A stretch of DNA of 64,000 nucleotides from positions 62,001 to 126,000 of the forward strand of contig MEDY01000164.1 of assembly GCA_001724265.1 (NCBI GenBank), written 5' to 3'. The stretch comes from Rhizaria sp. SCN 62-66 (taxonomy: Eukaryota). This document shows positions 1 to 62,559 of this stretch, one piece after another. A model generated the notes under the pieces. That model was given only the letters and a program-made list of their open reading frames with translations, searched no databases and was not told the DNA's origin. Made by a program: the position numbers and the translations under genes. The stretch's first letter is position 1. Each line of letters starts with the position of its first letter.

Positions 1-2184
1 AGCCTCAGCCTCCTCCTCAGCCTTGATGCGGGCAGCTTCGGCAGCCGCCTCCTCCTCAGCCTTGATGCGAGCAGCTTCAGCAGCCGCCTCCTCAGCCTTC
101 TTGGCGGCGGTGGCAGCCTCTGCCTCAGCCTGAGCCTTGGCAGCAGCCTCAGCAGCAGCCTTGGATTCGGCATCGGCCTCAGCGGCAAGACGAACAGCCT
201 CAGCCTCCTCCTCAGCCTTGATGCGGGCAGCTTCGGCCGCCGCTGCCGCAGCAGCCTCCTCCTCAGCAATGAGTGCAGCCGCAGCCGCAGCCTCGGCCTT
301 AGCAGCAGCCTCGGCAGCAGCCTCGGCAGCAGCCTCCTCTTCAGCCTTAGCAGCAGCCTCAGCAGCAGCAGCGGCAGCAGCAGCAGCGGCGGCGGCCTCA
401 GCCTCAGCGTCGTCATTGCCGCTGGTCTCCTCAGCGTTGGCAGTGCTGATGCTGTCAAACGAGGCAGTCGTGGTAGCCTTGCGACGCATAGTGCCGAACT
501 TAGGCTTCAGCGTGTGCTTAAGCACAGGCGCTGCGTTCTCAATCTCAGCCGCAACGTCCGCCGTCTCCACCGTATCCGCTGTCTCAGCAGCCTCGGCCTC
601 GGCAATGCCGGCGGTCACGGTCTCCAACTCAACCTTGGCAGCCTCAGTTTCGCCGGTAGTAGCGTTAGCGGCCGCGGCGGCCTTAAGCTGATTGATCTGA
701 GCTACGGTCAGACTGCCCGCGCCCGCGCCCGCGCCGCCGATTGCCGCGACGCCGATTGCGCCGATACCGGCAAGGCGGGAGGCGTCGAGCCTCTTCGGCT
801 TGAGGCCACTGCTGGTGGTGTTCGCAGCCGTGACGGGGACCGGCTGCTCTTCGGAGTCGGCCTCGGGGAGGGTGCCCAGGGCTGGGGCGCCGGGGACTAT
901 GCGGGAATCACTGTTGTTGAACGGGGTTGCGTTGCGATCGATGGAGAGACGGCCTGGCTGCTGCTTCTCAGAGCCAGCGGCGTTGTTGTTGCTGTTGTTG
1001 AGGAATGAAAGATCGCCGAGCTTGCCAGGAGTGCGCTTGACGTCGGAGCCGTCGTTGCCCTCAGCGTTTGTACTGTTGGTCAGGAAAGAAACATCGGTGA
1101 TCTTGCCAGGAGTGCGTTTGTTACTATCACTATCAGCGTTGCTGCTGTTGTTGCTGTTAGCAGTCAGGAATGACACGTCACCGATGCGGCCAACAGTGCG
1201 CTTGTTACTGTCACCGTCAGTGTTGTTGCTGCTAGCGTTGCTGTGCTGAAGGAATGACAGGTCACCAAGCTTGCCAGGCGTCCGCTTACTGCTAGCGCCG
1301 CCGCCCTCGCTATCGCTGTCTGCGCCGCCGGCGTTGGCAGCGGGCTTGGCCCCGCTCTTGGTCAGGAAAGCGAGCTTGTCCTCGGTGAACTTGTTCGCGC
1401 TGCTTGCGCTGCCGCTCGCGTTGTGGTTGTTACTGCTGCTTGGAGCTGGAGTGATCGCAGTCAGAAAGCCGAGCTTGTCGTCGCTGATCTTGCTAACGCT
1501 GCGGGAGCGGCTGGGCGTGGTGGCGAAGTGCGCAGAGTCGACGTCCGCACTCGCCGTCGCGCCTGGGGTTGTGAGGAAGCCAAGCTTGTCTTCGCTGATC
1601 TTACCAACGCTTTTCGGCTGCGGCTGCGGCGCGTCGCCGTCGTCGGTGCCCGCGGCGAGCCCCGCGGTGGAGATGGCGGCGCTGGCACTGCGGACGCGCC
1701 CCGTGGACGAGAAGATTGACGCGTCCGGCCCCGTAGGCAGCGCGATGCCGCGCGCAGTTAGGCTGGCGTCGTTGACCTCCTCGCCGTCGGGGAAAACGAG
1801 CTGGCCGACGTCGTTCAGGCGGATATCGTAGCCGCGGTAGCGGATGTCGAGAAGATCGTCATCGAGGCGGCCGGGTGTGATGCCTGGGCTGGGCTTGTAG
1901 GCCGAGTCGGCGCGCGCCTTGTCCAGCGCGGCGATGCGGTCCTTGATCGACTGCAGAGTACGTAGAACGAATGAGCAACAGGATAATAGTAAAAGTGAGT
2001 GAGCATATAGATACGGTGTTATTCTATACGAATACTCAAGAGATAGCTCTGTGATGAGCTGATGTAAAAATAAACGTACAATTTGCTTCTTGGTAGCGGA
2101 AGCTGGCGCGGGGGCGGGGTCGACCGAGATTGAGACGGGCGCGGGCTCAGCCTCGGTGATTGAGATGTCAGCAGCGGAGTCCAT
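1..2184 (-). CDS. Repeat-rich Ala/Glu-rich protein, possibly cytoskeletal; 3' end lies outside the window. Exons 2184-2080 and 1950-<1
   Basis: ATG at 2184 gives MDSAADISITEAEPAPVSISVDPAPAPASATKKQI. The intron 2079-1951 (GTACGT...CTGCAG) is phase 0 and continues SIKDRIAALDKAR..., open to the window edge. Contains seven (K)RTPGKLGDLSFL-like repeats and EEEAAAEAARIKA helical repeats. Not listed in the ORF track, probably because no stop lies in the window. Confidence 0.8.
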   Translation of the reverse strand, partial: MDSAADISITEAEPAPVSISVDPAPAPASATKKQIVRLFLHQLITELSLEYSYRITPYLYAHSLLLLSCCSFVLRTLQSIKDRIAALDKARADSAYKPSPGITPGRLDDDLLDIRYRGYDIRLNDVGQLVFPDGEEVNDASLTARGIALPTGPDASIFSSTGRVRSASAAISTAGLAAGTDDGDAPQPQPKSVGKISEDKLGFLTTPGATASADVDSAHFATTPSRSRSVSKISDDKLGFLTAITPAPSSSNNHNASGSASSANKFTEDKLAFLTKSGAKPAANAGGADSDSEGGGASSKRTPGKLGDLSFLQHSNASSNNTDGDSNKRTVGRIGDVSFLTANSNNSSNADSDSNKRTPGKITDVSFLTNSTNAEGNDGSDVKRTPGKLGDLSFLNNSNNNAAGSEKQQPGRLSIDRNATPFNNSDSRIVPGAPALGTLPEADSEEQPVPVTAANTTSSGLKPKRLDASRLAGIGAIGVAAIGGAGAGAGSLTVAQINQLKAAAAANATTGETEAAKVELETVTAGIAEAEAAETADTVETADVAAEIENAAPVLKHTLKPKFGTMRRKATTTASFDSISTANAEETSGNDDAEAEAAAAAAAAAAAAEAAAKAEEEAAAEAAAEAAAKAEAAAAAALIAEEEAAAAAAAEAARIKAEEEAEAVRLAAEADAESKAAAEAAAKAQAEAEAATAAKKAEEAAAEAARIKAEEEAAAEAARIKAEEEAEA
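998..1612 (-). repeat. Seven intragenic peptide repeats: 4x KRT[PV]G[KR][IL]xD[LV]SFL and 3x K[IF][ST][ED]DKL[GA]FL
   Basis: Units near 998, 1079, 1163, 1248 (81-85 nt period), 1361, 1460 and 1571, separated by Asn/Ser/Ala-rich spacers. Confidence 0.85.
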
Positions 2185-2777
2185 GGGTCACTTAAACCTC
2201 ACAAATGCACAATGATGCGCGGTGTGAGCTCTGGGTGAGAGGGGACTGTGCTGCGATGGTCGAGAGGAGGATGGAGAGGAGGAGGTGAGGTGAGCACGCG
2301 GTCGGAGGAAACCGAGGATATTCCCACATATATCAGTTAACTATAGAGATAGCACAACATAAATTAGCTTCTAAACCAGATGTACAGTTTCATGCTCCGC
2401 CCGCACTCCGACTATCGGTCATACTGATGCAGTAGAACGATGCGAAATATGATATCTTGAGAGGCACAAGCTTGGATGGCGCGCTGCCGGTCTGGCAACC
2501 ACACCGTTCGGCTGCTCGAGAGTGCGTCGCGCAAACATCTCCAGCGCACCCAAACGTCCGTTAATACGAAATTCATGCTACATAAGAAAACCAAACGTAC
2601 AATAACATCTTTTACTAAAACTGTATTTGAAAAATAGTTTGTTTTCCACACCTAGGCGCCTGTCTCCGCGACCCTTTCCGGACCGGCCCCGACTGAACCT
2701 CTCCAACACCTCCGCTCCGCCGGCGCTCGCCGCCCTTACCCCTCGCTTAGCTCTAGCCTGGCTTTTCAAGCGCACCC
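2185..2777. promoter_or_regulatory. Candidate bidirectional promoter between the repeat-protein gene and NOL9
   Basis: 593-nt spacer between divergent ATGs, with AT-rich patches. Confidence 0.45.
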
Positions 2778-8700: not shown

Positions 8701-11700
8701 TGCTCACGCTCGTGCTGGCGCCCCCTTACACGTCTAAGTACCTGCCGCGCCCCTGTCCGCCGCTGCCGCCGTTGCTGACCTACTTACACCCTACAGCCAG
8801 CACCCTGATTTTGAGCGAGACTGTCTCGCAGTCTAAGTCAAAGTCTAAGTCACAGCAAGCGCAGTCACCGGCGTCGCCGCAAAGTAGTGGCTCACAGGCG
8901 CAGCCACAGCACGCGCACCCGCCGGTACTCCCGCGGCCGCCGACGGTGCTTTTGACCGGCGCCAGGAACCACGGCAAGTCGACCTTCGCGCGGTCGCTGG
9001 CGACCGCCCTGTTGTCGGGCTCGCAGTCACTTGCGCTCACGGTACACCCCTCGGTCGTCAGAGTCAACAATAACAGCAAAGCCGGTGGCAGTAACTCGGA
9101 GGCTGTGGTTATGGCCGAGTCGACGACGGGTGACACCGACAGCCAGTCATCCGTGAACGCTGTCGCCGCTGTTGTTACTGCCGCGACAACTGCTCGTGCT
9201 GCCGTTGCCGCCGCTTTCCCCGCCGTTGCGATTCTGGAGGCCGACGGCGGCCAGAACGAGTACGGCCCCAGCGGCACGGTCACGCTAACGCTGGTACGCA
9301 GTGCGACTGCGACGGTGCCGACGGGCCACTTGTCGTGGGCGCTGCCGGACATGGAGGCGCGCGACAGGGCTAAGTACCCCTTCGGCGCGTCTAAGTGGGA
9401 GACCAGCGTGAGCGGGTTTAATGGCGAGAGTGTGAGCGCTTTGACTGTGTTTACGGGCACGATCACGCCGAACCAGGACCCGCAGACGCATTTGACTGCA
9501 ATCGCGACAGCCTACACTCGTTACCTCTCACTGTTGTATGACCAAGCTACTTACACGTCGGTTGACAATGGCACTTACACCGTCGGCGTGAGTGAAGCGC
9601 CGCCGGTGCTGCCGCTCATTGTCAACACGCCAGGCTGGGTGACCGGGCTCGGCAAGAGCGTTGTCTCGCATATTGTGTCGCTCGTTAAGCCGCACCACAT
9701 CGTGGAACTCAACGACAAAATTACTGTGCCTGCGACACTCCTGTCCTCCGCTGGCGGCAGCAAGAATAAGCGTGGCGCTAGCAGTAGCAACATCGATGAC
9801 GGAACCGATAAGCACAGTCACACCGGCCCAGTTAGCGTTGCTTTAATTCCTCGTACCACAACGTCCGCGAATGCTAATTCTGTCTCAGCATCTGTCCTCA
9901 CTGCAGTTGATCTTGCGGCCACAAATACGCCCTGGCTGTTCTCGGACTCCTTTCACTGCGACAACTCGACCCGCGGACGCCACCGGTCGCGGTTTGTCAT
10001 CCCACCCGAGGACGCGTTTGCGCTCGCACACGGTAACAAGGATCACCCGCAGTCTTCGACTGGTACATACCCATCTTTTACGCTCACTCTCAAAACTTGG
10101 CGAAGTTTTGCTCTATATTTTGTTCATGAATGTCTTTCGCCACTGTGTTTTCAATTGCTTGAATATATTTGCAACTAAGCTCATGGACTTTCTTTTTTCT
10201 TCAATTTTCGCTTTTCTTTTAGGTGCTGCTGCGGCGTTGCTGTCCGCGCTCGACTCGGTCCCTTTGCCTCAGTACCGCGCCAGTGATTGGCACTATGCGA
10301 CTGCTTTGTCCAACGGCATTAGTGGCAGCAATTCCAGCGGCGTACTTACTGCTCCGTCGCTCGCGCGCAGTCTAAGTACCTCGACCAAGGATGGTAAGAA
10401 GTCGGTCAAGACCCCAGTCGCTGCTGACGGTGTGAGCGCCGCAAGCAGTCTCAATACCGCCTGTCTTAGTACTGTGAGCAGCTGCTACGACACGGTGTCG
10501 CTGTCCACAAGCATGGCTGCCGCACTCCGACTCGCTATCCCCCTGACTCAGCCAACAGCCCTGACGCAGTCCGCTGCGTCTGCGAGCGACACTGCGTGTG
10601 TGGCGTTCTCTGATGCCGACATTGCGGCTGACTGGCCCTTTTTTGCGAACCGCGCGTTACCGTGCGGCAATAGCGGCCTCGGCAGTGCGATGAAGCTGCC
10701 GTCTCGTTCGCACCCAGAGGCGTTTGTGACCGCGAGCATGGGTGTGTGGGCTGCTGCTTGGTCGCAGTATGAGGCTGCAACAACTCCACTGACTACCGCG
10801 ACAGCATCAGCGACAACTACAACTGCAGCGCCTGCAGCGATCGCGGGCGCACCTGTTTCTGCGTCTGTTTCGGCTGCTGCTGCTGCTTTCACTAATTCAA
10901 TTGCACAGGCTTCTGCCTCAGACGCTGATCTGGTCCGTCGCGACACAATGACTGATACTGACACTAATCATACTCCAACTGCCAACGCTATTGCTAGTTC
11001 TAACGCTGTGGCTATGTCTGATAACGACACCACTGCTACTGTTTCCAGCTCGAGCACCCACTCGAACGCTGGTGACGGTGGAGGTAACGCTGCTGCTAGC
11101 TATGAAGCTAATGCGGGTGCTTCTGACTCGAGTAATTCTGACTTGATTTCAGTTCAGATGGCTGTTAACACTGATGCAACTGTCACCGTTTCTATCACTG
11201 TTTGTCGCAGCTGCAGCACAATCGCGAGCAGCGGCATCGCAGTACGCGGATTGACGCCGCTGACCATCGCGAGCAGCCACAGCAACAATACGGCCGATAA
11301 GATCACTGAGGTTTCCGCCGACCCCAACGCGAGCCCCGTCGACGACACTTACATGCCGAGTCCGAGTACTTACCTACCTAGCCCGGCGACTTACACCGGT
11401 GAGACCCCTTACATCGCCATCACTCCATTCTCACCTGGCACTCACAATACCGCAATGCCCCTCGCACTTGCACTGAGTGATAACAACACTCCAAGCACGA
11501 ATGTCTCTCTCGAACCTATTATTAACCCTAGCGCTAGTGCAAGCGCAAGCGCGAGTGCAGGTGCGAATCTCAGCACTCTTGGCGCGACGACCGGCTTGAG
11601 CTCTAGCTCTGGGTTCCCTAGTTTTACCTCGTCGGGTGTTGCTGGTAAGGTTGTAATCAAGGCCAAGACCCGGGAGGAGGCTCTTGCCAAGTACCAGGCT

Positions 11701-14672
11701 CAGCGCCGCTTGCTTAAAAAGCAGCAACAACAACTGCAGCAGGCTTTGCTTGAGGAGCAGTCTCTGTCACGCTCGGCCTCTGCTGCATTCGGCGTCTCGA
11801 TTGACACTGCAACGATCACCATTGGCGCCAACAATGCAAGTGTGATCAACGGTGTTCTCGCAGCAGAGACTGATGCGACAGCTATCATTAATGCGAACAT
11901 TCGCTTTAACGCCTTTGTCAGCAGCATTCTTACTGCTTCTGGTGTTCCGACTCCATCCAAGGACTCGAACGCTGACACTGCGAACTTGCCCATAACCGAA
12001 ACCAACGCCAGCGCGATTGCGACTGCCGCCGGTGAGGGCAAGGGCAAGAATAGCAAGAAAACACCGAGCCCCGCTGCCAGTTCCACCCTGAGTAGCAGTA
12101 ACAGCAGCAGCAGTGTTCTGCTGGGACACCTGACAACCATCAGCGGCTTAACTTTAACTGAGGACAGTTATAATCCCCGTGTGTACTTTCTCCCGCGGCA
12201 CACGAACGACCTCTGGCAGCCTCTGCTTTTCACGAACAGTGCAAGCAGTAGCAACACCAACAGCTTGAGTGGCTCTAAGACTAGCTCTGTGAGCGGTAGT
12301 AAGCAGCAGTCGGCGCTGAGTTCTCGCACGTCTCGTATCCAACTTACCAAAGGCCACCTGTCGCGCACAAATAGCGTGAATGCGGCCGTGCTCACTCATA
12401 ACAACGCTAGTAATATCACACCGACGAGCTTTAAGGGGCGTTCGATGACTGACACTGAGGTCCCCCCTCTCAGCCCATCTTCTAGCTCACAAGACTATAG
12501 CGCGTACGTGCCATGGTCTGCTTTGGCCGTGCTTTGCGCACAGTCGCTTCCGCCGCGCTCACAGTCAGTTGTCGCCGGTGTCGAGACCGCGATCACGCGC
12601 CAGCCCCTTACACCGCTGGGTCCCTTATATCCGCCTGTTCCGTCAGGCACCAGCATCAACGATGTCTTTGACAACCCCTCATCTGCGAGTGTAAGTGCAA
12701 ATGTAAGTGTAAGTCCCATTGCCAGCTCTACGAGTGGCCCTGTCGTTGCGACTCTAGCAACGCCCACCGTGCCGAGCCTCAACAGCATCACTGTCTCTTT
12801 CACCGTCGCAACGCCGTTGCCGCACGCTATCGTGCGCTCAACCCTGCTCGCGAGCTCTATCGCAGACGCCGCCGTGGCTGAGGCGACCCAGGGCCACGGA
12901 CTGAGGGCCGGGCAGTGCCAGCTGATCGCCGGTTTGCGGACGTACGCCGGCCGCAACCGCCCCCGCTCTCTCACTATGGACTGCAATTCAAGCGCTGTCT
13001 CTAGCTCGAGTAGCTATGCGCGTCGTCTTAGTGACGGCCGCTGCCACTGTGTCCAGGCTCCCGCAAGTAAAAGTCAAGTCGCGACCGCTAACGCCGCTCT
13101 TGCGGAGAGTTGCGCTTTTAGTCAAGCCGTCCCCGGCGCCGCGAGCGATTCTCTGTGGGGCTTGATCGGCCTCTTCCACAACCACGCCGCCTTCACCTGC
13201 GGGCTCCTTCCCCCGCCTCCCCCCATAGTAACCCCCGCAGGCACCGCCCCGCCCGCCGCCGTTGTCGCAGCGCATAATAGCGCGCACGCGGCGGCGGCGG
13301 CGGTGGCGGCGGCCGCGCGCCCCCTCTGGTGCCCGCCGGCGCCGATCACGCTCAAGGGCGCTACGGCCGCCGCGGTGGCGGCCACGGCGGCGGGCGCGGG
13401 CGCGGCGGCGGGCGGCACGGCGGGCGCGGGCGCGGCGGCCGTGGCGGGTGCGGCGACGGCGGCGGATGTCAGGCTAGCGGCGCAGGTGGCGACTCTGTGC
13501 GGTGGCGTGCGCTTCAGTGACCCCAGGGCTGAGTTGCGCGCCGCAGCCGAGGCTACTGCCGCTGCGAATGTCTACAACAACATTCATCTCCTTTCGAGCA
13601 GTGGCACTACCGTGATGACAAACAACACCCGGATTTCGGGTTATGAGACGCTTCGCTCGTTGGTCAAGTCGCGTCTATGCGGCTTGCCTTTGATTTCGCA
13701 CCCGTGCGCGCGTCGCAGCACGGTTTATCCCCAGTTCTGGTCACTTACGGGCATTAGCTACTTCTCAGCGAGCGATATCCTGATGTCGACCCCGCCGTTT
13801 GTGCGCTCCGTGCGTGGCCTGCGCGTTTTGAGCGCTTCTGATGCGGTCAACAACAGCGAGCGCAGTGCGGAGTATGGGCAGTGTGCGGGGGTGGAGGCGG
13901 CTGAAGCGCGGCTGTTGCAGCTAGCGCTCTCTGAACTCGGCATCAACGGCAGCAGCAACAACAGCAGCAGCAACAACAACAACAACAACAACAACAACTC
14001 TAGCACAAACACCTCGAGTGCGATCGTGACTGCCACTGATGGCGGTGTTTTGACGGTGAAACTGGCTCAATCGATGATCAACACCGTGGTTGGACTTGGC
14101 TCTGCATCAATGGCTTACACACTGTTGCCACATCATTTCAAGAACAACAGCAAGAGTTGCGTCAAGTCGAAGAGTGGCAACGCCGCTAACGATGATGGCA
14201 ATAACGGTGATGATGATGATGATGGCGAAGATGACATAGCAGTGGCGCCGTTCATGCCTGTTCCTTGCTTAGGTATCGGTGTTATCAGGGGGGTTGACGT
14301 TGAGCGCGGTTTGGTTTATATCACTGCAGCCGTCCCGGACTCTATTATGGTACGTTTACGACACCTTAAGCCGTTCTACTGTCACAATATGATACGAACT
14401 TGTTCCATAACTTCACTCACTGCATCTCTTCACTTAATATATTGCTTTACTATTCATTTTGTTGTTTTCGCACGTCGATTTAGGCGCGGGTGGATACTCT
14501 GTTGACCGCAGACGCGAACATGGTTGCGGTGCCACCACTGCTCACGCACTCGTCGCTGCCCCCCGGTTTGCTGCCGTACTCACTCACGCTGGACGGCAAG
14601 ATCAAGGTGCAGGGCGCGGGGCAGATGAAGAGCCGCGGTAATATTGCGCGCGTATCGCAACAAGGCAAGTGA
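2778..14672 (+). CDS. NOL9: NOL9/Grc3-type polynucleotide 5'-hydroxyl kinase (Clp1 family), about 3866 aa. Exons 2778-10062, 10223-14349, 14484-14672
   Basis: Walker A TGARNHGKST (~8955), LEADGGQNEYGPSGTVTL (~9234), PLIVNTPGWVTGLG (~9613), C-terminal PCLGIGVIRGVDVERGLVYIT, and an N-terminal beta-rich segment LVPGESFVVCGGVRVQALAG. Two AT-rich GT-AG introns join the three ORFs in frame; stop is TGA. Confidence 0.88.
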
Positions 14673-15243: not shown

Positions 15244-18200
15244 ATGTCCCATCACTCCCCCGTCTCAACTGCGGGCCATGCGACCTCTTCGCGTTCATAC
15301 GGCTTCCAGCCCGCCACCGACGCCGATGCACACGTTCTCTCCATCTGCGAGCAGGCAATGGACATCCTCCAGCACGAGTACCGCCGCCTGAACCGGACAC
15401 AGATGTTCACGCGCCAGTTCGTGGTTTCCCCGCTGCTGAAGCGGTTCGTCTACACCCAGATCAGCATCGACCTGATCAAGTCCCTGGCCGACTACATCAA
15501 GACCTGGCTCGTGGCCAACTCTGACCTGGAGTTCGTGCTGCGCGACTTTGAGCTGAACGCAAACCGGCCCGACTATGACGAGGACGACGGCATCTACAAC
15601 GACGCCATCCAGCCCATCAATGACCCCGCCGCCGAGGCCTCCGCACGCGCACGCCGCAACGCTGAGGCCGCGGGCGCGCACATGGCGTTCGGCCCCGTGT
15701 CCGCGCACGATTCGACGATGACGGCGCGGCGGCACGCCAACAGGAAGACCGCGCACGCCTTCGTGGCGCGCGTTTTGCACCAGCTCCACCACCCTTTGCA
15801 CGCCGCGCGACGCAGGCACATGATCGTTCGCAAACGGCTCCTCGCGTTGTCTACCGCGGCGCAAACGCTGCCAAAGAAGATGTGGGCGCTGGGCAACGCG
15901 TACTACCGCATGCTGTCGTGGCGCATGTCCGTCACATGTCACCTTGATTCGCCTTCGTCAGTCTACCTCCAAGTACGTGTCGGTGCTTTGCTCAGGAACA
16001 AGAGCCAGGAAACGCTTCGCTCATCTCTTTCGGCTTAAGTGATCTCTACGATATCGACACTCCTTTATCGCGTAGAGAAAAGTGCATCAATTTTAAATAA
16101 CGAGTTATAATTTCACTCGAGTTGTAATCTCACAATGTATACTTTCTTTTTTCTCCTTACTTCTCCTTGCTTCTCCTAGCCCACGTCGCTGAGCAGCATG
16201 CAGTCCTCCCAGGCCGACGAGGCGTACTGGGAGTCGCTCTACCTCTTCTGCGAAAAGACCATTGAGATCATCTACCCCACCTATTGGGTCGTTGTGCGCC
16301 ACGAAATCACGCGTCTTTTCCGCTCACACTTCTTCAACGTTTCGATCAAGCGCCACCGCGCGCGCGCCGGCGCCGCCTCGGGCCCCGGCACCGCCGCGGC
16401 CGCCGCGGCCACCGGTGGCGGCGGCGCCGCGCACTCGCAGTCGTTCCGCGCGCTCTCGACGCAAGCGGCGGCCGCGGCGGCGGCCGCGGCGGCGGCGGCC
16501 ACAGGGGCGTCTAGAGCGGGCGCGGGCGGCGGCACCAGCGGTGTTGGCGTCGTCGGGCTCGGTGGTGCAGGGCTGGGCTGGAACGCGCGGTCTGCTGCGT
16601 TGTCGTCGCTCGGCGCATCGCAGACTACGGCGTCGTCGTCCGTGTACTTGCCGCACATCCCCAACAGCAACAACAGCAGCAACAGTAACGCCAACAGTGA
16701 TCCTGTTAAGGCGGCGGCGGCCGTGGCGGCTGCTGCGGCGGCTGCGGCGGCGGAGGGTGACAGTGACCCGCTAGCAGCCGCAGCGGCCGCCGCTTCAGTT
16801 ATCTCCAACGGCAACAACGGCAACAACAGCGATGACCAGACCTCTCACGAGCACAACGTTGAGAACGAGGACGACGACGACGACGGTGGTTACTATGACG
16901 GCCGCGACGATCCTTCTGGCGCTCTGCTCGGATTCTCCGAGAAGGCTCTAGCTCGCGCCGCCGCCGCCGCCGTCGCTGCGACCTCAGCTGCCGGCTCCAA
17001 CGCCGGCAACAACAACGGCGGCGGCGGCGGCGGCGTTGTGATCGGCGCTAACGGCTGCGTGCGCATGTCTTCGCTGCCGCCGGTGCCTGGCAGTCTGGTC
17101 GCGAAGCAGCAGCGCCAGGCGCAGCGCGAGCGCGATGTTCGACTGGCTGAGGCGGCCACAGCGGCCGCGGCGGCGTCGGCGGCTGCGACGGCGATGGGTG
17201 CGGGTGCGAACCGGGCTCAAGCGCAGGCGCAGGCTCAAGCAGCGCAAAAGCAGCAGCAACAGCAGGCGCAGCGCAAGCAGGACCAGGCTGAGAGCAGCGC
17301 TGATGGCGGGAACGCCAATGTGAGCTCGAACTCTAATGACAACAACAACGGCAACAACAGTAACAGCGCGAATGCGGGTGCAGCTGTGAGTGCTTCGGCA
17401 CCCACTAAGGGCGCTGACAACGCAGCCGTAGCGACCGCGGCTGTCGCCGCCGCCAACCCAGCCGGCGCTGGCAGCAACGGCGTTAGCATCAGTCAAGACT
17501 TACTCTCTGCGGCTGACACATTGGAACTGCACGACTTGTTCCCTGAGCTGTACCCGACCCACCGTGGCCAACCGCTGCACCGGCAGTTTAACACGCAGAC
17601 CTCACTCGACATCCGGTCGCCGATGCTCGACTGCATCCTGCCGTCCTTCTCCACGCTGCGCCAGTACCAGACCACGATGCTCTCCGTGCGCGCACACCGC
17701 CTCCGCATCGAGACCGAGCGACAGGCGCGCGCGGGCGACCTAACTTCGGACCAGGAGGGCGCGCGCAGTGGCGAAGTCGGCCACTACAACACCAAGACTT
17801 CGAATGTGGTGATGGGCGACGAGGTCTTTGGGGAGATCGCGCATAAGTTCCAGGGCAATCTGCGTGCTAATTTGCGTCAGGCTGTTAAGTCGCCGCCTAA
17901 GGCGCGCTTTTACGTTAACGACGTTGTCGCTCCTGGTGATGCTGCGGCGGGACAGAGTCAAAGTCAGGCCGCCGCAGTGTCAATGCTGCCCCGGACCGCC
18001 GCCGGCGTCTCTCGCGCGCACGGTCACTTGGCGAAGTCTGGCGTCGGCAGTATCAGCCATGGCGGCCACAGCCACCACAGCGGCGACCTGAGCGCGCGCG
18101 CGTACGAGGAGGCCGCGGCTCGGCGCGCCGCTGCTGCGCCGTTTTACGCTCAGCGCGCGCGGCCCGTTGGCGAGACGCTCTCCGCAACGGCGTCGTTTGT

Positions 18201-22122: not shown

Positions 22123-23242
22123 ATGGCATTACGCGCACTGACTCTCCAGGAGATCGATGACAAGATCGCTAAGGCATAGGTCGATAAAGCTAACCTTGTC
22201 AAGATTCGGGAGCTCTACTTGGCGACCTTTACGGAGGCTTTAAGGAACAAGGCTCCCACAGAGTTCATCACGAAGGAGCTCACGACGATCTCCGCGTCCA
22301 TGGCTGATGTGCAACAGAAGATCGAGAACCTTGAGAAGGAGAAGCTCAAGCTTCCTGCTCTTAATCCCACCACAGTAATCGCAGCTGAAGGTTCGTATTT
22401 GGGCTCCTGGCTCTTCTTATTGGTAACGAAATTTCGAGTAAATTTGATTATTTATCTCATATCCACCACACCACTCTTTTTCTCCTCCTTTTCTAGAGAT
22501 CTTTGAGCAGGCTCAGTATGCCTTGTTTCTCGTCAAGCATCCCAGCGCCAACATCGTGGACTACGACTGCGGGACTGGTTTTTTCGTGACAGAGGACTAC
22601 GCCGTGACTGCTAAGCACATCTTCCCCGAGGCGCTCAAGGGGCACTTTTTTATCAACTGCAAGTTCCTCATCAGCGGTCACGACCCTGTCCACTTCGACC
22701 TCGCAGTGCACCACATCTCGCCCGACCGTGACTTCGTCGTGCTGCGGCGTCCGACCGAGTTCGAGTTCGAAGCTAATGTGAGTCTGAAACGCATGCTCCT
22801 GGCACCGCGCCCGTTCCCCATCGGCAGTTCTAAACTCGGACAGTGCTACGTCCCTGCGTTCCACCACACCACTGATATCGCCTCTACTGGATTGCATTTG
22901 GAGGCCGCCGCCGTCACACGCCTCGCGGATGATGGCGCTTACTTCACCGCGGAGATGTATCCCGGCGATTCGGGGACCGCTGTCGTGCTCAACAATGGAT
23001 GCGCCATTGGTGTGTTCTTGGGTGTGCGCACCGGGACTCACACCCACTCCATCGAGACACCTGATAGTCCGTCCGAGCGCGTCCTCAAGTCTGGTGATCA
23101 GCAGGTTCTGGAAGAGCTGGACAACCTCTCGGTGGCATCGGTGGCGAACTCGGTGAACAAGAGCAAGCACAACTTCATGCTCTCCATGTCACACATCACC
23201 CCCTACCTCAGCACATCGTCGCTTGCACAACGACTTAAGTGA
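22123..23242 (+). CDS. Trypsin-like (PA clan) serine protease with an N-terminal helical domain, about 337 codons, in-frame TAG at 22177-22179. Exons 22123-22390 and 22497-23242
   Basis: CGTGFFV...AVTAKH (His), DRDFVVL (Asp) and YPGDSGTAV (Ser) form a catalytic triad. Phase-1 intron GTTCGT...TTCTAG joins ORF 22219 to ORF 22523. ATG 22123 is in frame with ORF 22219 across a TAG; stop is TGA. Confidence 0.8.
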
Positions 23243-31417: not shown

Positions 31418-31496
<79 letters not shown>

Positions 31497-42330: not shown

Positions 42331-44569
42331 ATGAGTTCGTCTTCTCAGGTGGCGCCTCCCACCGCCAAGCCCGTCGCCGTCTCTTCTGACGACCCGACAC
42401 TCACGCTCAGCAACCAGCGCGTGAAAGAAGGTACGCTTAAACGGATAAACGCACTATAGCATACACATTTGCGCTATCTATGCTGTTGTATCGCCTGACT
42501 CTACTCTACACGAGTCAACTTTCTCTCAAATCCCCCCACATTCTTTACCTTGCTCCTTTTTCAACAAACACGCCACCCTTGCTCCACCCCAGCGCGTGAG
42601 GCGGTCAAGAATGGCACCGACAAGGTCTACCGCATCTACACCGACGGTATCTTTGACATTTTCCACCTTGGTACGTTCTCTAACCTCTGGCCGCGTCTCG
42701 AACGCTCTAACTAATCACGAAACCATCCCCGTCTCTCATAACGCATACACTCTCACGTTAGCTGTCTTATTTCCTTCATTATGCATACTATGACTACAGG
42801 GCATATGAACGTGCTTAAGCAAGCCAAACACGCGCTCGGTGATCCTTCGCGCGTTCACCTCATCGCAGGTATCTGCTCCGACGCCGACACCAACCGCGTA
42901 CGTCCCTCGACACCACTCACTAAAACAATAATATCTCACTCAAATAGCAACATGTATTACTAGAAGCGCCACGGTGAATTTAATACTCGCATTTGTATCT
43001 GTATCGAAATTGTAACCCAACTCTCATGTAATATCATCGTATACTCACTGATATCATGCTTTTGCTTTGCTTTTGCCTCGCTTGTTTGCACACCGCTTGT
43101 TTGCGCGCGCGCGCAGTTCAAGGGTCCGCCAGTGATGGACGAGCAGACCCGCGCCCAGTCCGTCGCCCAGTGCAAGTGGGTCGACTCCGTCATCTGCCCC
43201 GCGCCCTGGATCGTCGACGACAAATTTCTCGAAGCCAACGGCATCGACTTTCTGGCCCACGACGCTGCGCCCTACGCCAGCGCGGACGGCACCGATTGTT
43301 ATGCACTCGTCAAGTCTAAGGGGATGTTTCTGGCCACTGAGAGGACGGATGGCATTTCGACGAGCGATATCATCGTCCAAATCGTGCGCGACTGTACGTA
43401 TACGTGCTTTCTTGACAACAAAGCAATGTTTAGATGTCATCTTTACCTTTTGACGTTGATCATGTGTTTTGCAAGCATACTTGCTCTTGATGTGTTTGTT
43501 ACTTGTTCAGTTTGCTCACATTTGCTCGCCACGTCCTTTTTTTTCCCTGTCTAACTTCTCCATGTTGTGATCCCTTTCACGGTTGTTTGCGACTTTAGAC
43601 GACAAGTACATCGACCGCAATCTCTCCCGCGGCTTCGACCGTTCCAGCCTTAACGTCGGCCGCACGTGGGAAATCCGCGCCGTTGCGCACGAAAAGGGCC
43701 GCAAAGTTGACGCATCCCTCAGCGCCGTCTCGGCGGCCAAGTCAGAGCTGGCCCAGACGTGGCACGCCTTCTTGGACGAGTTTCACCGCGTCAAAGTGAA
43801 GGATCTCGTCACGGGGCAGGTGAAGCGTGTCGTGCGCGGGGTCCGCCGCCGCGCCGGGAACGGGGGCCGCGGCCATAGTAACGCGGCGGGGGCGGGCAGT
43901 GCGAGCGATGCGGAGAGTAACGCGAGTGCCAGTGTGGGCGTGTGCACTGATAACGAGGGCGAGTGGAGTGATAGCGCAAGCAGCATCACGGACACCGAGC
44001 ATAACAACAGCAGCAACAACAACAACACGCAGTCTAAGAATAGTAGTAACTGTGGCATTGTGTCTGCGTGCGATGCTACCACTGCCACTGCGAATGCGAA
44101 GCCCGAGTCCGAGTCTGAGGCTGACGCTGACGCTGATGCTGAGTCAAAGAGCGCGGCTGATGCGGCCACGAGCTCGAATGCTCTGCCTAAGACGAGCTCT
44201 GATGATAACATCGGCATTCGCGCCCGCAACGCCCCCAACACCAGCCAGAGCCAGAGCGCTATCTCTAACTCCAACAGCAACAACAACAACAACAGCATCA
44301 GTAATAGAACCCCCGCTGGCACAGGCGCCAAGCCTGCCGTCACATTCACGGACGTGACGGATTATGCCGCGTCTGCTGCGGGCGCCAACGACGGCGACAG
44401 TGACGAAGACAGCGCCAGGTACAGCACGACTCTGGGTAAACAGCTCGCTGATGTCGCCAAGCACTCCGGTCGGCTCTGCTGGGCGGTGACCATCTTCCTC
44501 GTCTCGCTGCTCTCGTACCTCAACATTCTCTCGTATATCAGCAAGTGTCGCCAGACTAAGCGCTTTTAA
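42331..44569 (+). CDS. PCYT1: Choline-phosphate cytidylyltransferase (CCT), about 507 aa. Exons 42331-42430, 42593-42670, 42800-42897, 43117-43393, 43599-44569
   Basis: Spliced product reads YRIYTDGIFDIFHLGH (HxGH), KGPPVM, CKWVDSVICPAPW, IDFLAHD and [31 protein letters not shown]. All four introns preserve the frame; stop is TAA. Confidence 0.93.
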
Positions 44570-52842: not shown

Positions 52843-52874
<32 letters not shown>

Positions 52875-55800: not shown

Positions 55801-58800
55801 ATCACCGCGGGCGTGAAGGCGGACACGGGCGGGGGCGCGACGCCGGTGCCTGCGAGCGCCTCGGCCGCGGCCTGCGCGGCGGCCAGCGCGGCGGCGCCCG
55901 TGGCCGCGGCGGCGTGCGGCGACTGCGTGGCGCCCAGTCCCACGTTGGCGCTCGACTGCAGGAAGAACGGGTTGCTCTTGACCAGGCGCGCGTCGACCTC
56001 CGGTGACAGCAGGGTTGCCAGCGCCGCCGACGGCACGCGGATACCTGGGCCCGCGCCGGAGGCCGCGGTGCGCGGACTGGCGGCGATCGCGGCCGACATC
56101 GCGGCGGTCGCGGCCGCGCTGGCGTTGCTGGGGCCCGCGGCGGCTGCGGCGGCCGCGGCGCGCGCGGAGGCCGAGAGAGGGACCGCGCCGCCGCCGGGCG
56201 CGTGGCTGGCCGCGGCGGCCGTGGCGGCCGTGATGGGATCCAGCAGCGGCGCCAGAATGCGGTTGTAGTCGCTGTCGGGCACGGTCAGCGGGCCGGAGCC
56301 GATGGCGAGCGGCAGAGTAACGCCGCCGCCGCCGGGCAGCGGGAGCCCGCCCGCCGAGGCGGCACCGAGCGCCTCCGTGTCGACCACGTCGTCGTCGTCT
56401 GGCGGCGGCGCGAACGCGAAAGCCAGGTCCGCGTTGGCGCCGGACCAGCGCACGAGCGAGAGAGGGGAGAAGGCGGCCGGGCCCAGCGTGGCCATGACGG
56501 CCTTGGTGGCGGCCGCGGCAACGACCGAGGCTGCGGCGGGCGACGCGAACGCGCTCGACGGTCCCACCACCGCGGGCATCGCCGCAGAGACAGCGAACTG
56601 CCCCGCGGCGCCCGCGCCCGCATGCGCGCCCGCGCCCCCCGAGCCCGAATGCGAGTTGTTGAGCGAGGAGCTGAAGGGCGAGGTGAGCGGCGCCGTGAAC
56701 GCCTGCAGCGGCGCTGAATACATACTCGTGTCCCGCCCCGCGCGTGCGATGCCGCGGTTGACGGCGGACTTGGGGTCGCGCATCACGGACCCCACGGGCT
56801 CGATCGCCTTGAGCAGCTTCTCGCGCACGCGAGCGGGCAGCTGCACGAGCGCCTCGCCGCCGTGCGCCTGCGCCGTGCCCTGGTCCAGGTGCACGACGAC
56901 GAGCCCGTCGAGCGCGCCCAGGTCCTCGTCCAGGAAGGCCAGCGTCGACGTGTGCGCGCCGATGAGGTAGGGCATGGGCGCCGAGACAAACGAGATGAGC
57001 TTGCGCGGGAGCAGCGGAACATACACGTGCGGCCAGCGCAGCGGGTACAGCAGCAGCAGCAGCGCCTCGCACACAGGCACCAGCAGCGACACGTTGCTGG
57101 AGAGCACGAGCACGCGCCGCTCCTGCATCAGCGCCTCGACCACCGAGAGAACCACGGCCGCGGGCAGGCACTGCAGTAGCGGCAGCGCGGAGACCGCCGA
57201 CGGCTCCAGAGGGTTCTGCGGCGGCGGGCGGTGGAAGAAAATGTTCACGCCTATATAGAAAGAAAAGAAACAACGCAAATGGTCAAAGAGAGACTTGAGT
57301 TAGACGCGTGTCGAGATAAAAAGAATGAAAATGAATAGAAAAGAATATTAAACGAAATAAAATCGTAAAATTGTGTTATTTTCGTGATTTGCGTGAAATA
57401 AATATTCGTGTTACGTACCGGGCGTCACCGTGCCGCCGCCGCCGGCCTTGCCGACGAGGCCCGTGGCCGCCGTGTAGACCGCCAGGCGCGCCAGGAACGG
57501 GTCCGGGCCCAGGTGCGGCAGCGGCATGCGCGAGTGCAGGAACAGCGGCGGCGCGCCACCGGAACCAGAGGCGGTACCCGTGGGGGGCATGAGGGCCGGG
57601 AGCGCGCCCGCCGCGGCGACGGCGTGGTAGCCCGCCGTGTCCGCACCGTTGCCGCGAGGAGAGCGGCGCGCAGTGCTGCTGCTCCCGTTGTTGTTCTGCT
57701 TATCGTCGCCATCATTGTTGTTGTTGTTGTTGGAATCGTCTTGATCGGGGTCGCTGCCGAGGTTTTCGCTGTCGCTGTCGCCGTCGTTGCCGTCGCCATG
57801 GTAGTCATCGTCGTCGCCGTCGTCGTACAGCAGGCCGTCGCAGTACGCCCACAGGTCGGCGTGCTCCTGCTCCTCGTCTTCGTCCTCATCTTCATCTTCG
57901 TCGCCGTCGTCGTCGCCGTCGCCGTCGCCCGACTCGGGGGCACTCGAACGCTTTTTGGAGCCGCCAGCCAGCACCACGGCAGTCGAGTCACTCTTAGCAT
58001 CCTTGTCTTTGTTGTTCTTGTTCTTCCCGTTCCCGTTGCCGCTGCCGTTATTGTTCCCAAGCAGACTGAGCTTCTCCAGCAACGGGCCCATGCCGCGGCG
58101 CACGGCCTCACGCCGCGCCGCCAACACCCGCTGCCCGTGCAGCCTCCGCAGCACGAGCGGATCGAACGAGGACAGGTTGAGCTGCACCCGGGCACCTCCC
58201 AGCGCGGGCAGCGGCGTATCGTGCAGCAGCACGGAGAGGTACCGCTCCAGCGGCAGCGCGCAGGGGGAGAGCGTGAGCCGGTAGAGCTCGATGAGCGTGG
58301 TGCGGAACTCGGCCAGGAAGGGGAAGCATGACAGCAAACAGATGACCTTGGTGGTGTACAGTGTAGGCAGTGCGGGGAGCTTCGCGCGTACGGCCGCGGC
58401 CAGGCGCGGCGACGGCGGCAGACGCAGCCAGGTGGGCAGCGAGCTACTGTTGTTGCTCGCGGCGGCGGCGGCAGCGGCGGCGGACTGAGAGGTGGCCGAG
58501 GTTGACGGCGACAGAGTCGGAGGCGCCAGTCTAGAGCCAGTACTCGCACTAGGATTAGAGCCTGAGGCCGAGGCAACGAGTCCACCGCCGCTGCCGCTGC
58601 TGCTGCTCGCCAGCGCGGCCTTGCCCGCGGCGGTTGAGTTGGTGGGGCTGGCGCAGGCGTGTGGCCCGAAGTGCTTGGCCTCGTACTGCGCCTCCATCGA
58701 GCGCAGCAGCGTGACGACTTCGGCCTCGGGCACAGGCTCCTGGATCACGATGCACGTGCCAAACATGCGCTCGCCGCCCGCGAGCGTGCACGCGAAGTAC

Positions 58801-60600: not shown

Positions 60601-62559
60601 TTACGCCTTGATGTGCGCGTCAACAAAGGCGCGCAGACGCGTGGCAAACTCCTCCAGCTTCGCCGGAGGAGCGCAGAAGACGACACGGAAGAAGTTCTCA
60701 GCCTAAATGAGACAGCATAACAAAAGTGACAAGATGAACATAAAAACAAGTCTAGTGAGCTCATATCATAACATATCATAATAAACCTTGACGCACAGAT
60801 ATAACATATCGACTTCAGCTGTTTCCCACATTTTCAAAAAATAGAAGTCACATATACGCGAGATATCTTAGGCGTCAGTGATATTTGACGGTGCGTACCT
60901 TGAAGCACTTGCCGGGCAGCACCATGACGTTCTGCTCGTTGAGGAAAAGCTCGGTGAAGGCCGTGTCGTTGGGGATATCGCGGAAGGCCTCCGTGTCGAT
61001 GCGGATCATGGCGTACATGGCGCCGCGCGGGGTGATGAGCTCCAGACCGGGGATGCCAGTGCACGCCCTAAAATAAGGCGAAAATAGCGAAGCAAAAATG
61101 CAGAAACAGTGAGTGATAAAGATATAAACACATTTTTCAGTAACTGCAACCATGTAAACACAAAAATGGCAAGAAAACATCTCAAAACATATCTCTTGAT
61201 GTCAGAATAAGTGTGACGCGTGAAAAGCGATCATAGCATGACCGACGTACTTGATGACGAAGTTAGCGTGCTCCTCGAGCGTGGCGTTGAGCTTGTCGTA
61301 GTAGTCCTCGGGCACGGCCGTCAGGAAGCGCGTCACAGCGGCCTGCATGAGCGTCGACGTGCCCAGCACGACCTGCGTGAGCGACGTGAGCGGGCCGCGC
61401 AGCGACTTAAGAGCGCCCGCGCGGTCGCAGAGCAGCATCCAGCCGACACGCCAGCCAGGGACGAGGAACTGCTTGGCGGCACCGCCGATGGTGATGACGG
61501 GGACGTCGCCGGCCACGTCCGCGAAGGGCGTGAAGACCTCTCCCTTGAAGACCATGTCAGCGTAGATCTCGTCCGCGACGACGGGCAGGCGGTGCTTGCG
61601 AGCCATCGCGGCGACGGCGGCCACGTGCGCGGGCGCCCAGTTCGACCCCGTCGGGTTGCCCGGGTTGTTCAGCAGCAGGAACTTGATCGACCCGGCGGGC
61701 GCGGCGGTAATAAGTGCGTCCATGGCGTCCAGGTCGACCTCCCAGCTGCGCGAGGGGAGCAGGGGGTAGCGCACGGGGGTCAGGCCGAGGTGGCCCGCAA
61801 TCGTCTCGTAGAGGGAGAACGCCGGGGCGGGGGTCAGGAACGAGTCGCCGGGGTTGCAGAAAAGCTGCGCGGCCAGCAGCAGCGCCTGGGAAGAGTTTGG
61901 TTATAGTGGCAACAACAAAAGTAATAAGGGTAGATTTGGTAAGATATATGTTGGAATATGAAGACAAAAAGTTAATAAAATATAAACAATGCAGGGCCAC
62001 AAATAAAACTAAGAGAATGAAGTTACATCTAAAAGGATAAGGACTCCATCGAAGTCATATAAGTATTCTCTCACTTGAAGTTAAGACGCACCTGGGAGGC
62101 GCCGCAGGTGACGATGACGTCGTCGGCAGTGTACTTAGTCGCCTCGGACGACTCATACGCGGCAACGGCAGCGCGCGTGGAGGGCAGGCCGAGCGAGTTG
62201 GTGTATCCGTTGGCGTTGCCGGCCGCAGCGGCGTCGGCGACGGCGGCGGTGACCTCGGGGGCGGGGGGAAGGTTGCCGAAGACCGAGGGGTCGCCCAGGG
62301 CCAGGTCGATCAGAGCGTTCTTGTGGTTCTCGGGGCGCTTGATCTGTGTATAGCAACGCAATAAGCGGGGTGTGTAAGAGAGAAGTGGAGCAGAGAGTGA
62401 GATGGGGTGATGAAGTGAAAAGACGGGGTTACAGAAGCGAGATTCATGTGGGCCATAATTGGTGAGAGACAGAAGACGGACCTTGTCGACGACGGCGCGG
62501 ATGGGGTTGAGGGTGTTAACCGACATCTGGGACGGGGTGATATTCCACTCGGAAGACAT
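60601..62559 (-). CDS. TAT: Tyrosine aminotransferase (PLP fold I), about 411 aa. Exons 62559-62482, 62343-62092, 61885-61251, 61067-60899, 60702-60601
   Basis: NPIRAVVD, LALGDPSVFGNL, NNPGNPTGSNW, VADEIYADMVF, the PLP-lysine motif GGAAKQFLVPGWRVGW, PRGAMYAM and VLPGKCF. Four frame-preserving introns; stop is TAA. Confidence 0.95.

What the first reader, a model, noticed from the sequence alone, without database searches (positions are those of the whole stretch)
1951..62481. Shifted 5' splice-site consensus GTNCGY, with C at +4 in 17 of 17 introns
Donors: GTACGT x11 (2079, 14350, 15973, 29262, 27823, 25448, 42671, 42898, 43394, 57418, 61250), GTACGC x2 (42431, 60898), GTACAT (10063), GTTCGT (22391), GTCCGT (62481), GTGCGT (62091). 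Most eukaryotes prefer A at +4 and budding yeast prefers U. Position +4 faces the U6 ACAGAGA box, whose METTL16-dependent m6A is linked to the +4A preference. Inference: altered U1 5' end or U6 box, or loss of METTL16/SNRNP27K, in this lineage.
Basis: partly seen in the sequence, partly recalled or inferred. Interest (0 to 1): 0.75.

Follow-up and report, generated by a model that had tools for sequence, protein, structure and literature searches.

The report
Intron donors fixed on GTACGT
An uncultured, GC-rich, intron-poor eukaryote starts nearly all of its introns in this stretch with GTACGT, with C at the fourth intron base where other eukaryotes have A or U, so it could show what reads that position in the spliceosome.

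Summary
All 17 hexamers are at the stated coordinates. Each sits where GC-rich coding sequence switches to an AT-rich stretch of 106-219 nt that ends in a pyrimidine tract plus AG. Eleven junctions align without a gap at the junction to homologous proteins, one with a 3-residue indel beside it: aminotransferase 4, choline-phosphate cytidylyltransferase 4, an unnamed gene 3. Five more rest on frame shifts or in-frame stops. One (2079) rests on composition and signals only.

C at +4 is 17 of 17, G at +5 is 16 of 17, and A at +3 is only 14 of 17. Among all GT sites in the window, C at +4 is 24.5%. The introns share no sequence, target-site duplication or inverted ends, so they are not one transposon-like family.

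A second shifted signal turned up: CTCAC in 12 of 17 introns, probably the branch site.

No genome is held, the window has no snRNA, and no spliced RNA was seen. No paper describing such a consensus was found.

The parts
1951..2079 (-). intron, 129 nt, donor GTACGT, CTCAC 45 and 49 nt before CTGCAG
   Evidence: Composition step, splice signals and a GC3 drop only. Length is a multiple of 3 and there is no in-frame stop. Not checked by homology.
10063..10222 (+). intron, 160 nt, donor GTACAT (the only one without G at +5)
   Evidence: Joins the 2435-codon and 1375-codon frames of a giant gene with a +1 frame shift. The alternative donor GTAACA at 10033 is also frame-compatible. No homologue was found.
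14350..14483 (+). intron, 134 nt, donor GTACGT
   Evidence: Frame shift (length mod 3 = 2), GC 0.37, CTCAC 64 nt before the 3' splice site.
15973..16179 (+). intron, 207 nt, donor GTACGT
   Evidence: In-frame stop at intron nt 64 if retained. Joins ORFs of 252 and 795 codons. CTCAC 47 nt before the 3' splice site.
22391..22496 (+). intron, 106 nt, donor GTTCGT
   Evidence: Frame shift (length mod 3 = 1), GC 0.38, pyrimidine tract plus TAG. Not checked by homology.
25274..25448 (-). intron, 175 nt, donor GTACGT (gene 5, third intron)
   Evidence: No gap at the junction against homologue P0069. In-frame stop at nt 35 if retained. CTCAC 43 nt before the 3' splice site.
27671..27823 (-). intron, 153 nt, donor GTACGT (gene 5, second intron)
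   Evidence: No gap at the junction against P0069, inside a conserved block. CTCAC 46 nt before the 3' splice site.
29102..29262 (-). intron, 161 nt, donor GTACGT (gene 5, first intron)
   Evidence: P0069 residues 2-70 and 72-149 align to either side, with no gap at the junction. CTAAC 54 nt before the 3' splice site.
42431..42592 (+). intron, 162 nt, donor GTACGC (cytidylyltransferase, intron 1)
   Evidence: The junction fits 14 homologues on the donor side. The window has 3 extra residues just after the junction. In-frame stop at nt 27 if retained.
42671..42799 (+). intron, 129 nt, donor GTACGT (cytidylyltransferase, intron 2, splits the HxGH motif)
   Evidence: No gap at the junction against 14 homologues. 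CTCAC 44 nt before the 3' splice site.
42898..43116 (+). intron, 219 nt, donor GTACGT (cytidylyltransferase, intron 3)
   Evidence: No gap at the junction against 14 homologues.
43394..43598 (+). intron, 205 nt, donor GTACGT (cytidylyltransferase, intron 4)
   Evidence: No gap at the junction against 14 homologues. CTAAC 44 nt before the 3' splice site.
57251..57418 (-). intron, 168 nt, donor GTACGT (giant gene with a DENN domain)
   Evidence: In-frame stop at intron nt 6 if retained. GC 0.30 between exons with GC3 of 0.92-0.94. A DENN domain match starts 33 residues into the downstream exon. The upstream exon has no match to a solved structure.
60703..60898 (-). intron, 196 nt, donor GTACGC (aminotransferase, intron 4)
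   Evidence: No gap at the junction against 16 homologues.
61068..61250 (-). intron, 183 nt, donor GTACGT (aminotransferase, intron 3)
   Evidence: No gap at the junction against 16 homologues. One contig of the poly-A RNA library X1 runs through it unspliced.
61886..62091 (-). intron, 206 nt, donor GTGCGT (aminotransferase, intron 2)
   Evidence: No gap at the junction against 16 homologues.
62344..62481 (-). intron, 138 nt, donor GTCCGT (aminotransferase, intron 1)
   Evidence: No gap at the junction against 16 homologues. Read through, it would add 46 residues that no homologue has.

Best explanation
What it is. The 17 sites are genuine major-type (GT-AG) spliceosomal introns of an uncultured, GC-rich, intron-poor eukaryote from wastewater or activated-sludge samples. 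Its donor has collapsed onto one hexamer, as in other intron-poor lineages, but the hexamer is G|GUACGU. C at +4 and G at +5 are more constant than A at +3. A branch-like CUCAC lies about 42-69 nt before a pyrimidine tract and YAG.

Shown: the introns are real, the motif is far beyond chance, and it is not inherited from a repeated element.

Inferred mechanism (my best guess, about 45%). U1 keeps ACUUACC and U6 keeps ACAGAGA. U1 tolerates the +4 mismatch, as budding yeast does with GUAUGU. The choice of C is then set later, when the 5' splice site is handed to the U6 ACAGAGA box. The cause would be a changed protein or modification environment there, for example an altered METTL16 or SNRNP27K state or some other factor. 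With few introns per genome, all of them have drifted to that single optimum.
For: - All sites are present.
- 11 of 17 junctions show no gap at the junction against homologues, and 5 more are required by the frame.
- A relative encodes the same aminotransferase as one uninterrupted ORF, so the window's interruptions are insertions relative to it.
- Position counts: +4 C 17 of 17, +5 G 16 of 17, +6 T 15 of 17, +3 A 14 of 17, -1 G 11 of 17.
- Background C at +4 is 0.245.
- 11 of the 20 GTACGT in the window are donors. The sense strand of the exons holds 12 GTAAGT, none next to an intron-like stretch.
- The introns share no sequence, target-site duplication or inverted ends.
- Few introns: 17 in about 55 kb of exon.
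- Precedent for unchanged snRNAs under a shifted +4: U1 ACUUACC was invariant in all species where U1 candidates were found (227 of 230 Saccharomycotina, 9 of 10 outgroups), and the U6 ACAGA box in all 240 species, across repeated +4A to +4U switches (PMC10581693, passages).
- One relative at 60% identity over the 144 query residues matched has its single visible intron, at a different position, also starting GTACGT.
Against: - Only one 64-kb window was examined. By my own arithmetic, 17 of 17 bounds the true +4C frequency only above about 0.84 at 95%.
- No spliced RNA was seen. One contig from the poly-A RNA library runs unspliced through intron 61068-61250.
- C at +4 pairs neither with U1 pseudouridine 5 nor with the U6 A. 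An invariant C is therefore hard to explain without a partner that reads it, which favours the rival below.
- A possible 5'UTR intron upstream of gene 5 would need a donor such as GTGAGC, with A at +4.
- Donor 10063 lacks G at +5 and has an alternative.
- METTL16 and SNRNP27K status is unknown.
Confidence: 0.5

Rival explanations
1. Compensatory snRNA change. Either U1 carries G at position 5 (ACGUACC), so that GUACGU forms six unbroken Watson-Crick pairs, or U6 carries G at the central A of the ACAGAGA box, so that +4 to +6 CGU pairs with ACG. The invariant C is then read directly by an RNA partner.
For: - +4 C (17 of 17) and +5 G (16 of 17) are more constant than +3 A (14 of 17). Two donors have a pyrimidine at +3, one of them checked by homology. 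That pattern fits a reader of +4 to +6.
- Exon positions -1 to -3 are weak, so recognition leans on the intron side.
- Twelve canonical GTAAGT sit unused in the sense strand of exons.
- A second signal is shifted in the same direction: branch motif CUCAC instead of CUAAC. That C would face a U2 pseudouridine (pairing register recalled, from no call).
- With few introns, co-evolution of an snRNA and all donors is feasible.
Against: - No snRNA of this organism could be examined.
- U1 was invariant in the 236 species where it was found, and the U6 ACAGA box in all 240 species, despite +4 switches (PMC10581693).
- Explaining both the donor shift and the branch shift this way would need two separate snRNA changes.
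Confidence: 0.3
2. Sampling effect. The window is not representative. Genome-wide, the organism has a looser GTNNGT donor in which C at +4 is merely frequent.
For: - Only 17 introns in 8 genes were seen.
- The candidate 5'UTR intron near 30808 lacks a GTNCGT donor.
- 10063 departs at +5.
- Relatives differ: GTAAGT in L002, and GTAACA, GTAATC, GTGAAA in the loci L029 and L058, whose best-matching query is the Allomyces javanicus protein.
Against: - 0.245^17 = 4e-11.
- The 11 junctions fixed by homology, independently of the motif, are all GTNCG.
- The introns come from 8 unrelated genes spread over 60 kb.
Confidence: 0.12
3. The introns are copies of a transposon-like introner family and share the donor by descent.
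For: - Intron positions are not shared with relatives. The aminotransferase gene is intronless in L003 and has an intron at another position in L018. The introns could therefore be young.
Against: - An all-against-all comparison of the 17 introns finds only two matches, of 13-14 nt.
- Direct repeats across the ends are no longer than in mismatched controls (mean 4.2 vs 4.1 nt), and there are no terminal inverted repeats.
Confidence: 0.03
4. The AT-rich stretches are not introns but in-frame insertions, assembly chimeras or intergenic spacers.
For: - No spliced RNA was seen.
- 2079 and 62481 can be read through without a stop.
Against: - 11 junctions align to homologues with no gap at the junction once the stretches are removed.
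- 15 of 17 stretches carry a frame shift or an in-frame stop.
Confidence: 0.02

Closest known systems
Near-invariant donors of intron-poor yeasts (budding yeast type, U at +4)
   Same: Few introns, one dominant hexamer, and a +4 base that mismatches U1 position 5. The general link between intron poverty and more conserved 5' splice sites is stated in PMC8476143 (passage) and PMC11732430 (passages).
   Different: The +4 base here is C, not U. U can pair with the U6 A, but C cannot. The introns here are 106-219 nt and AT-rich in a genome whose 4-kb windows run 53-75% GC.
+4A to +4U switches in Saccharomycotina linked to loss of METTL16 and SNRNP27K (PMC10581693)
   Same: The variable position is the same one, and the setting is the same: reduced intron number.
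   Different: That work treats only A versus U, in the passages I read. A C state is not described there. Whether METTL16 or SNRNP27K are missing here is unknown.
Canonical eukaryotic donor GURAGU with branch CURAY
   Same: GT-AG ends, G at +5, U at +6, a branch-like motif and a pyrimidine tract.
   Different: +4 is C in 17 of 17 and never A. The branch-like motif is CTCAC in 12 of 17 introns against CTAAC in 4.
Blastocladiella emersonii introns (PMC2773782)
   Same: An early-diverging fungus from the phylum of the best named homologue of the window's aminotransferase, Allomyces. It has GT-AG in 102 of 105 introns and a CTAAC-like branch site (passages).
   Different: The loci L029 and L058, whose best-matching query is the Allomyces javanicus protein, have A at +4. 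The window's organism is not shown to belong to that phylum.
Introner elements (transposon-borne introns; recalled, from no call)
   Same: Lineage-specific intron positions and uniform splice signals.
   Different: No sequence similarity, target-site duplication or inverted ends among the 17 introns.

Membership tests
Major (U2-type) GT-AG spliceosomal intron | GT at the 5' end and AG at the 3' end | tested here: met
   17 of 17.
Major (U2-type) GT-AG spliceosomal intron | Removal restores a reading frame collinear with homologous proteins | tested here: met
   11 of 17 show no gap at the junction against homologues. 5 of 17 are required by a frame shift or in-frame stop. 1 of 17 (2079) is not testable this way.
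Major (U2-type) GT-AG spliceosomal intron | Branch-site motif and pyrimidine tract upstream of the 3' splice site | tested here: met
   13 of 17 introns have CTCAC (10) or CTAAC (3) 42-69 nt before the 3' splice site; 4 of 17 have no strict CTVAC in that range. CTCAC is in 12 of 17 introns against a shuffle mean of 2.97, and 0 of 2000 shuffles reach 12.
Major (U2-type) GT-AG spliceosomal intron | Spliced RNA observed | tested here: inconclusive
   Contigs of four runs were laid on 42380-62379. None of the 15 joints shown is at a claimed intron, and 116 more joints were not shown. One contig of the RNA library is unspliced across 61068-61250.
Minor (U12-type) intron | Donor of the RTATCCTT type (motif recalled) | tested here: not met
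   0 of 17; the first 12 nt of every intron are listed.
Introner or transposon-derived intron family | Copies alike in sequence, with target-site duplications or terminal inverted repeats | tested here: not met
   Only two matches, of 13-14 nt, among the 17 introns. End repeats are no longer than in controls.
Simplified 5' splice site with METTL16/SNRNP27K loss (Saccharomycotina type) | U preferred at +4 | tested here: not met
   0 of 17 have T at +4.
Simplified 5' splice site with METTL16/SNRNP27K loss (Saccharomycotina type) | METTL16 and SNRNP27K orthologues absent from the proteome | not testable with these tools
   No genome or proteome of the organism is held.
Splice site and snRNA co-variation | U1 position 5 or the U6 ACAGAGA box changed to pair with C at +4 | not testable with these tools
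   No snRNA in the window, no genome, and the relative's contig is not searchable.

The most novel reading that the evidence does not exclude
This uncultured eukaryote has re-tuned the RNA core of its spliceosome. A G replaces pseudouridine 5 of U1, or the methylated A of the U6 ACAGAGA box, so that C at +4 is read by a Watson-Crick pair. The CUCAC branch motif may reflect a matching change in the U2 branch-recognition sequence. The two in-frame TAG codons seen in passing may point to a non-standard genetic code in the same lineage. That would be a natural case of a spliceosomal snRNA co-evolving with all the introns of a genome.
Probability: 0.3. Interest if true: 0.85.

Novelty: new variant of a known kind. 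Interest (0 to 1): 0.6.

Why it matters
Current work on 5' splice site evolution treats +4 as a choice between two states. A is favoured by m6A-modified U6, and U pairs with unmodified U6 after loss of METTL16 and SNRNP27K (PMC10581693 and PMC11732430, passages).

A lineage fixed on C is a third state that neither pairing scheme explains. Recovering its U1, U6 and U2 genes and its METTL16 and SNRNP27K status would show directly whether +4 is read by RNA pairing or by proteins. It would also show whether the snRNA cores, held to be invariant, can co-evolve with the introns when introns are few.

There is a practical side. Gene finders trained on GTAAGT or GTATGT would mis-annotate this organism and its relatives in wastewater metagenomes.

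Tried and rejected
RNA evidence.
- One run search found a poly-A metatranscriptome (X1, share of words 0.28), two wastewater runs labelled RNA but flagged as probably DNA (X2, X3) and one run of unknown kind (X4, 0.66).
- Laid on 42380-62379, they gave contigs that run on through introns and no joint at any claimed intron among the 15 joints shown; 116 more were not shown.
- This says nothing either way about splicing.

Search of solved structures with whole spliced proteins.
- This was not run.
- Junctions were checked instead exon by exon, by reference, and by alignments computed from coordinates.

Giant gene holding introns 10063 and 14350.
- No solved-structure relative and no homologue in the large protein collection.
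- Donor GTACAT stays unverified.

Intron 57418.
- The downstream exon holds a DENN domain, but the upstream exon has no match.
- The junction therefore could not be checked by homology.

Lineage.
- The named best homologues are scattered: Allomyces javanicus 48% and Phlyctochytrium arcticum 44%, Vermistella antarctica, Pelomyxa schiedti, Paulinella micropora, Fonticula alba, Rigifila ramosa.
- No lineage could be assigned.
- The protein atlas gave no usable hit.

Relatives.
- The 20.6 kb of the 58%-identical relative (L003) shows long uninterrupted ORFs and no clear intron, so its donor type is unknown.
- Its 216-kb contig could not be searched for snRNAs.

Introner hypothesis.
- Rejected.

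Exon depletion test.
- GTACGT occurs 3 times on the sense strand and 4 on the antisense strand of exons; GTAAGT 12 and 17.
- The counts are too small to show avoidance of either.

Literature.
- Three searches for GTACGT or GUACGU, of which 25 of 35, 30 of 554 and 40 of 152 hits were listed, gave no paper describing such a consensus.
- Donor logos printed only as figures cannot be searched.
- The supplement of PMC2773782, which lists B. emersonii introns, was closed.

Full report
**Where the window comes from.** The window is GC-rich (0.53-0.75 in 4-kb windows). It carries very long open reading frames broken by short AT-rich stretches. No whole genome is held for it, and no Rfam family reaches its gathering score in it. 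Its DNA is found in contigs of activated-sludge and wastewater runs.

The best named homologues of its two conserved enzymes are scattered:
- Allomyces javanicus 48% and Phlyctochytrium arcticum 44%.
- Vermistella, Pelomyxa, Paulinella, Fonticula and Rigifila.

The closest relatives are unnamed environmental sequences, at 77%, 58% and 55% identity. I take it to be an uncultured eukaryote without a sequenced close relative, and I could not place it further.

**The observation.** All 17 hexamers are at the stated coordinates: 8 on the + strand, 9 on the - strand. Each lies where GC-rich coding sequence turns AT-rich. An acceptor with a pyrimidine tract and AG follows 106-219 nt later (mean 166.5 nt).

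GTACGT occurs 20 times on both strands of the window, and 11 of these are the claimed donors. So 16 of 17 fit GTNCGY, while C at +4 is 17 of 17.

**Are they introns?** I checked the junctions independently of the donor motif.

- *Aminotransferase gene* (minus strand, 62559 to 60604). Homologues found with exon 3 alone give tblastn pieces that end and restart at the claimed borders. The protein spliced by coordinates shows no gap at any of the four junctions against 16 homologues. In a relative at 58% identity the same protein is one uninterrupted ORF (L003).
- *Choline-phosphate cytidylyltransferase gene.* All four junctions fit 14 homologues. One has a 3-residue indel next to the junction.
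- *Gene 5* (three introns). All junctions show no gap against the only homologue found, P0069 at 66% identity. P0069 is a single sequence, and I do not know how its gene was called.

That makes 11 of 17. Five more (10063, 14350, 15973, 22391, 57418) carry a frame shift or an in-frame stop, together with a drop of GC3 from 0.46-0.94 in the flanking exons to 0.22-0.50 in the intron.

Intron 2079 can be read through without a stop, so it rests on composition and signals only. For 10063 a second frame-compatible donor, GTAACA at 10033, exists, and no homologue could be found. For no intron is there another GT..AG pair of the same length within 9 nt.

**RNA.** The contigs of all four runs behave like DNA. 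None of the 15 joints shown is at a claimed intron, and 116 more were not shown. One contig of the poly-A library runs unspliced through intron 61068-61250.

**The signal.**

| Position | Count |
|---|---|
| +1 G | 17 of 17 |
| +2 T | 17 of 17 |
| +3 A | 14 of 17 (T, G, C once each) |
| +4 C | 17 of 17 |
| +5 G | 16 of 17 |
| +6 T | 15 of 17 |
| -1 G | 11 of 17 |
| -2 A | 9 of 17 |

- C at +4 is 24.5% over all 7271 GT sites in the window and 23% in intron bodies. So 17 of 17 has a chance of about 4e-11, and the 11 homology-fixed junctions about 2e-7.
- By my own arithmetic, 17 of 17 puts the true frequency above about 0.84 at 95%.
- A scan for GT at GC-to-AT steps, blind to the hexamer, found no overlooked canonical donor on a coding strand.
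- The sense strand of the exons (55,032 nt) holds 12 GTAAGT, none beside an intron-like stretch, against 3 unspliced GTACGT.

The shift from A to C at +4 is therefore real in this stretch, and it is stronger than the preference at +3.

**Not a repeat family.** All-against-all comparison of the 17 introns gives only two matches, of 13-14 nt. Direct repeats across the intron ends are no longer than in mismatched controls, and there are no terminal inverted repeats.

Intron positions are nevertheless young or unstable in the clade:
- L003, the 58% relative, has none of the four aminotransferase introns.
- L018, at 60% identity over the 144 query residues matched, lacks the first two. It has one at another position, which also starts GTACGT, with CTCAT about 40 nt before CACAG.
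- L002, at 56% over 178 residues matched, has GTAAGT.
- The loci L029 and L058, whose best-matching query is the Allomyces javanicus protein, have GTAACA, GTAATC and GTGAAA. I read these by eye at the breaks of the tblastn pieces.

So the trait is not general to the named relatives and may be confined to a narrow clade.

**A second shifted signal.** CTCAC is present in 12 of 17 introns. Mononucleotide shuffles give a mean of 2.97, and 0 of 2000 reach 12. In 10 introns it lies 42-69 nt before the 3' splice site. CTAAC is present in 4 introns, in 3 of them at 44-54 nt. I read CUCAC as the branch motif. Its C stands where yeast has the A that pairs with a U2 pseudouridine; that register is recalled and comes from no call.

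**How it may work.** From passages of PMC10581693: +4 pairs with U1 position 5, a pseudouridine, and later faces the central A of the U6 ACAGA box. Across repeated +4A to +4U switches in Saccharomycotina, the ACAGA box was invariant in all 240 species. U1 ACUUACC was invariant in all species where U1 candidates were found (227 of 230 Saccharomycotina, 9 of 10 outgroups). The switches went with loss of METTL16 and SNRNP27K.

By that precedent the most likely state here is unchanged snRNAs, with the preference set by proteins or modification at the hand-over to U6. I hold this at about 45%.

Against it: U at +4 gains a pair with the U6 A, while C gains a pair with nothing canonical. Yet C is invariant and better kept than +3. 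A G at U1 position 5 or in the U6 box would explain that directly. I hold this at about 30%. None of it could be tested here.

**Is it known?**
- Searches for GTACGT with intron and splice site (35 papers, 25 listed), GUACGU (554, 30 listed) and GTACGT with introns, consensus and genome (152, 40 listed) gave no paper describing such a consensus.
- Two hits that I opened were irrelevant.
- The review PMC11732430 speaks only of A and U at +4 in the passages I read.
- Logos in figures cannot be searched, so an earlier report may exist.

**Verdict.** I rate it a new variant of a known kind: an intron-poor lineage with a fixed donor, but fixed on a base that current pairing schemes do not explain. 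Interest is 0.6.

Noticed in passing
window 49548-49550 and 19517-19519, minus strand: In about 17,500 curated codons, the only two internal in-frame stops are both TAG. Each sits inside a very long reading frame whose GC3 periodicity (0.83-0.85) continues in the same frame afterwards, with no AT-rich spacer. The 9 gene ends visible in the window use TAA x7, TGA x2 and TAG x0, despite GC3 near 0.85. This may be TAG read-through or reassignment. There is no tRNA in the window and no homologue to show the residue. In the distant relative L003, two long ORFs do end in TAG.
   Followed up: partly
all 17 introns, 42-69 nt before the 3' splice site: The likely branch motif is CTCAC (12 of 17 introns; shuffle mean 2.97, 0 of 2000 reach 12) rather than CTAAC (4 of 17). 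The distance to the 3' splice site is unusually long and regular.
   Followed up: partly
window + 2556, + 15072, - 62976; - 30808: There are candidate 5'UTR introns at GC steps upstream of three genes, with donors GTCCGT, GTTCGT and GTTCGT, each followed by a pyrimidine tract and AG. A fourth AT-rich stretch upstream of gene 5 has a good acceptor (TTTATTGCAG) but only donors such as GTGAGC, with A at +4, so it is a possible counter-example. None is verified.
   Followed up: partly
L018:1740-1930: An environmental relative (aminotransferase 60% identical over the 144 residues matched) has an intron at a position where the window has none. Its donor is GTACGT, with CTCAT about 40 nt before CACAG. 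It lacks the window's first two aminotransferase introns.
   Followed up: partly
window 45036-59798, minus strand: This is a giant gene at about 75% GC (793 + 4070 codons if the TAG is read through). A DENN domain starts 33 residues after intron 57418. The rest is low-complexity sequence rich in Ala, Ser and Gly.
   Followed up: partly
window 4098-7224 and 12691-12709, plus strand: Eleven of the 12 sense-strand exonic GTAAGT lie in the giant gene 2757-14672. One of them is AGG|GTAAGT at 7224. All are inside an uninterrupted frame and apparently not used as donors.
   Followed up: no
window 31440-31540: A long run of AAC repeats (poly-Asn) lies near the start of the 3482-codon ORF. Poly-Q, poly-N and poly-A tracts are common in all the window's proteins.
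   Followed up: no
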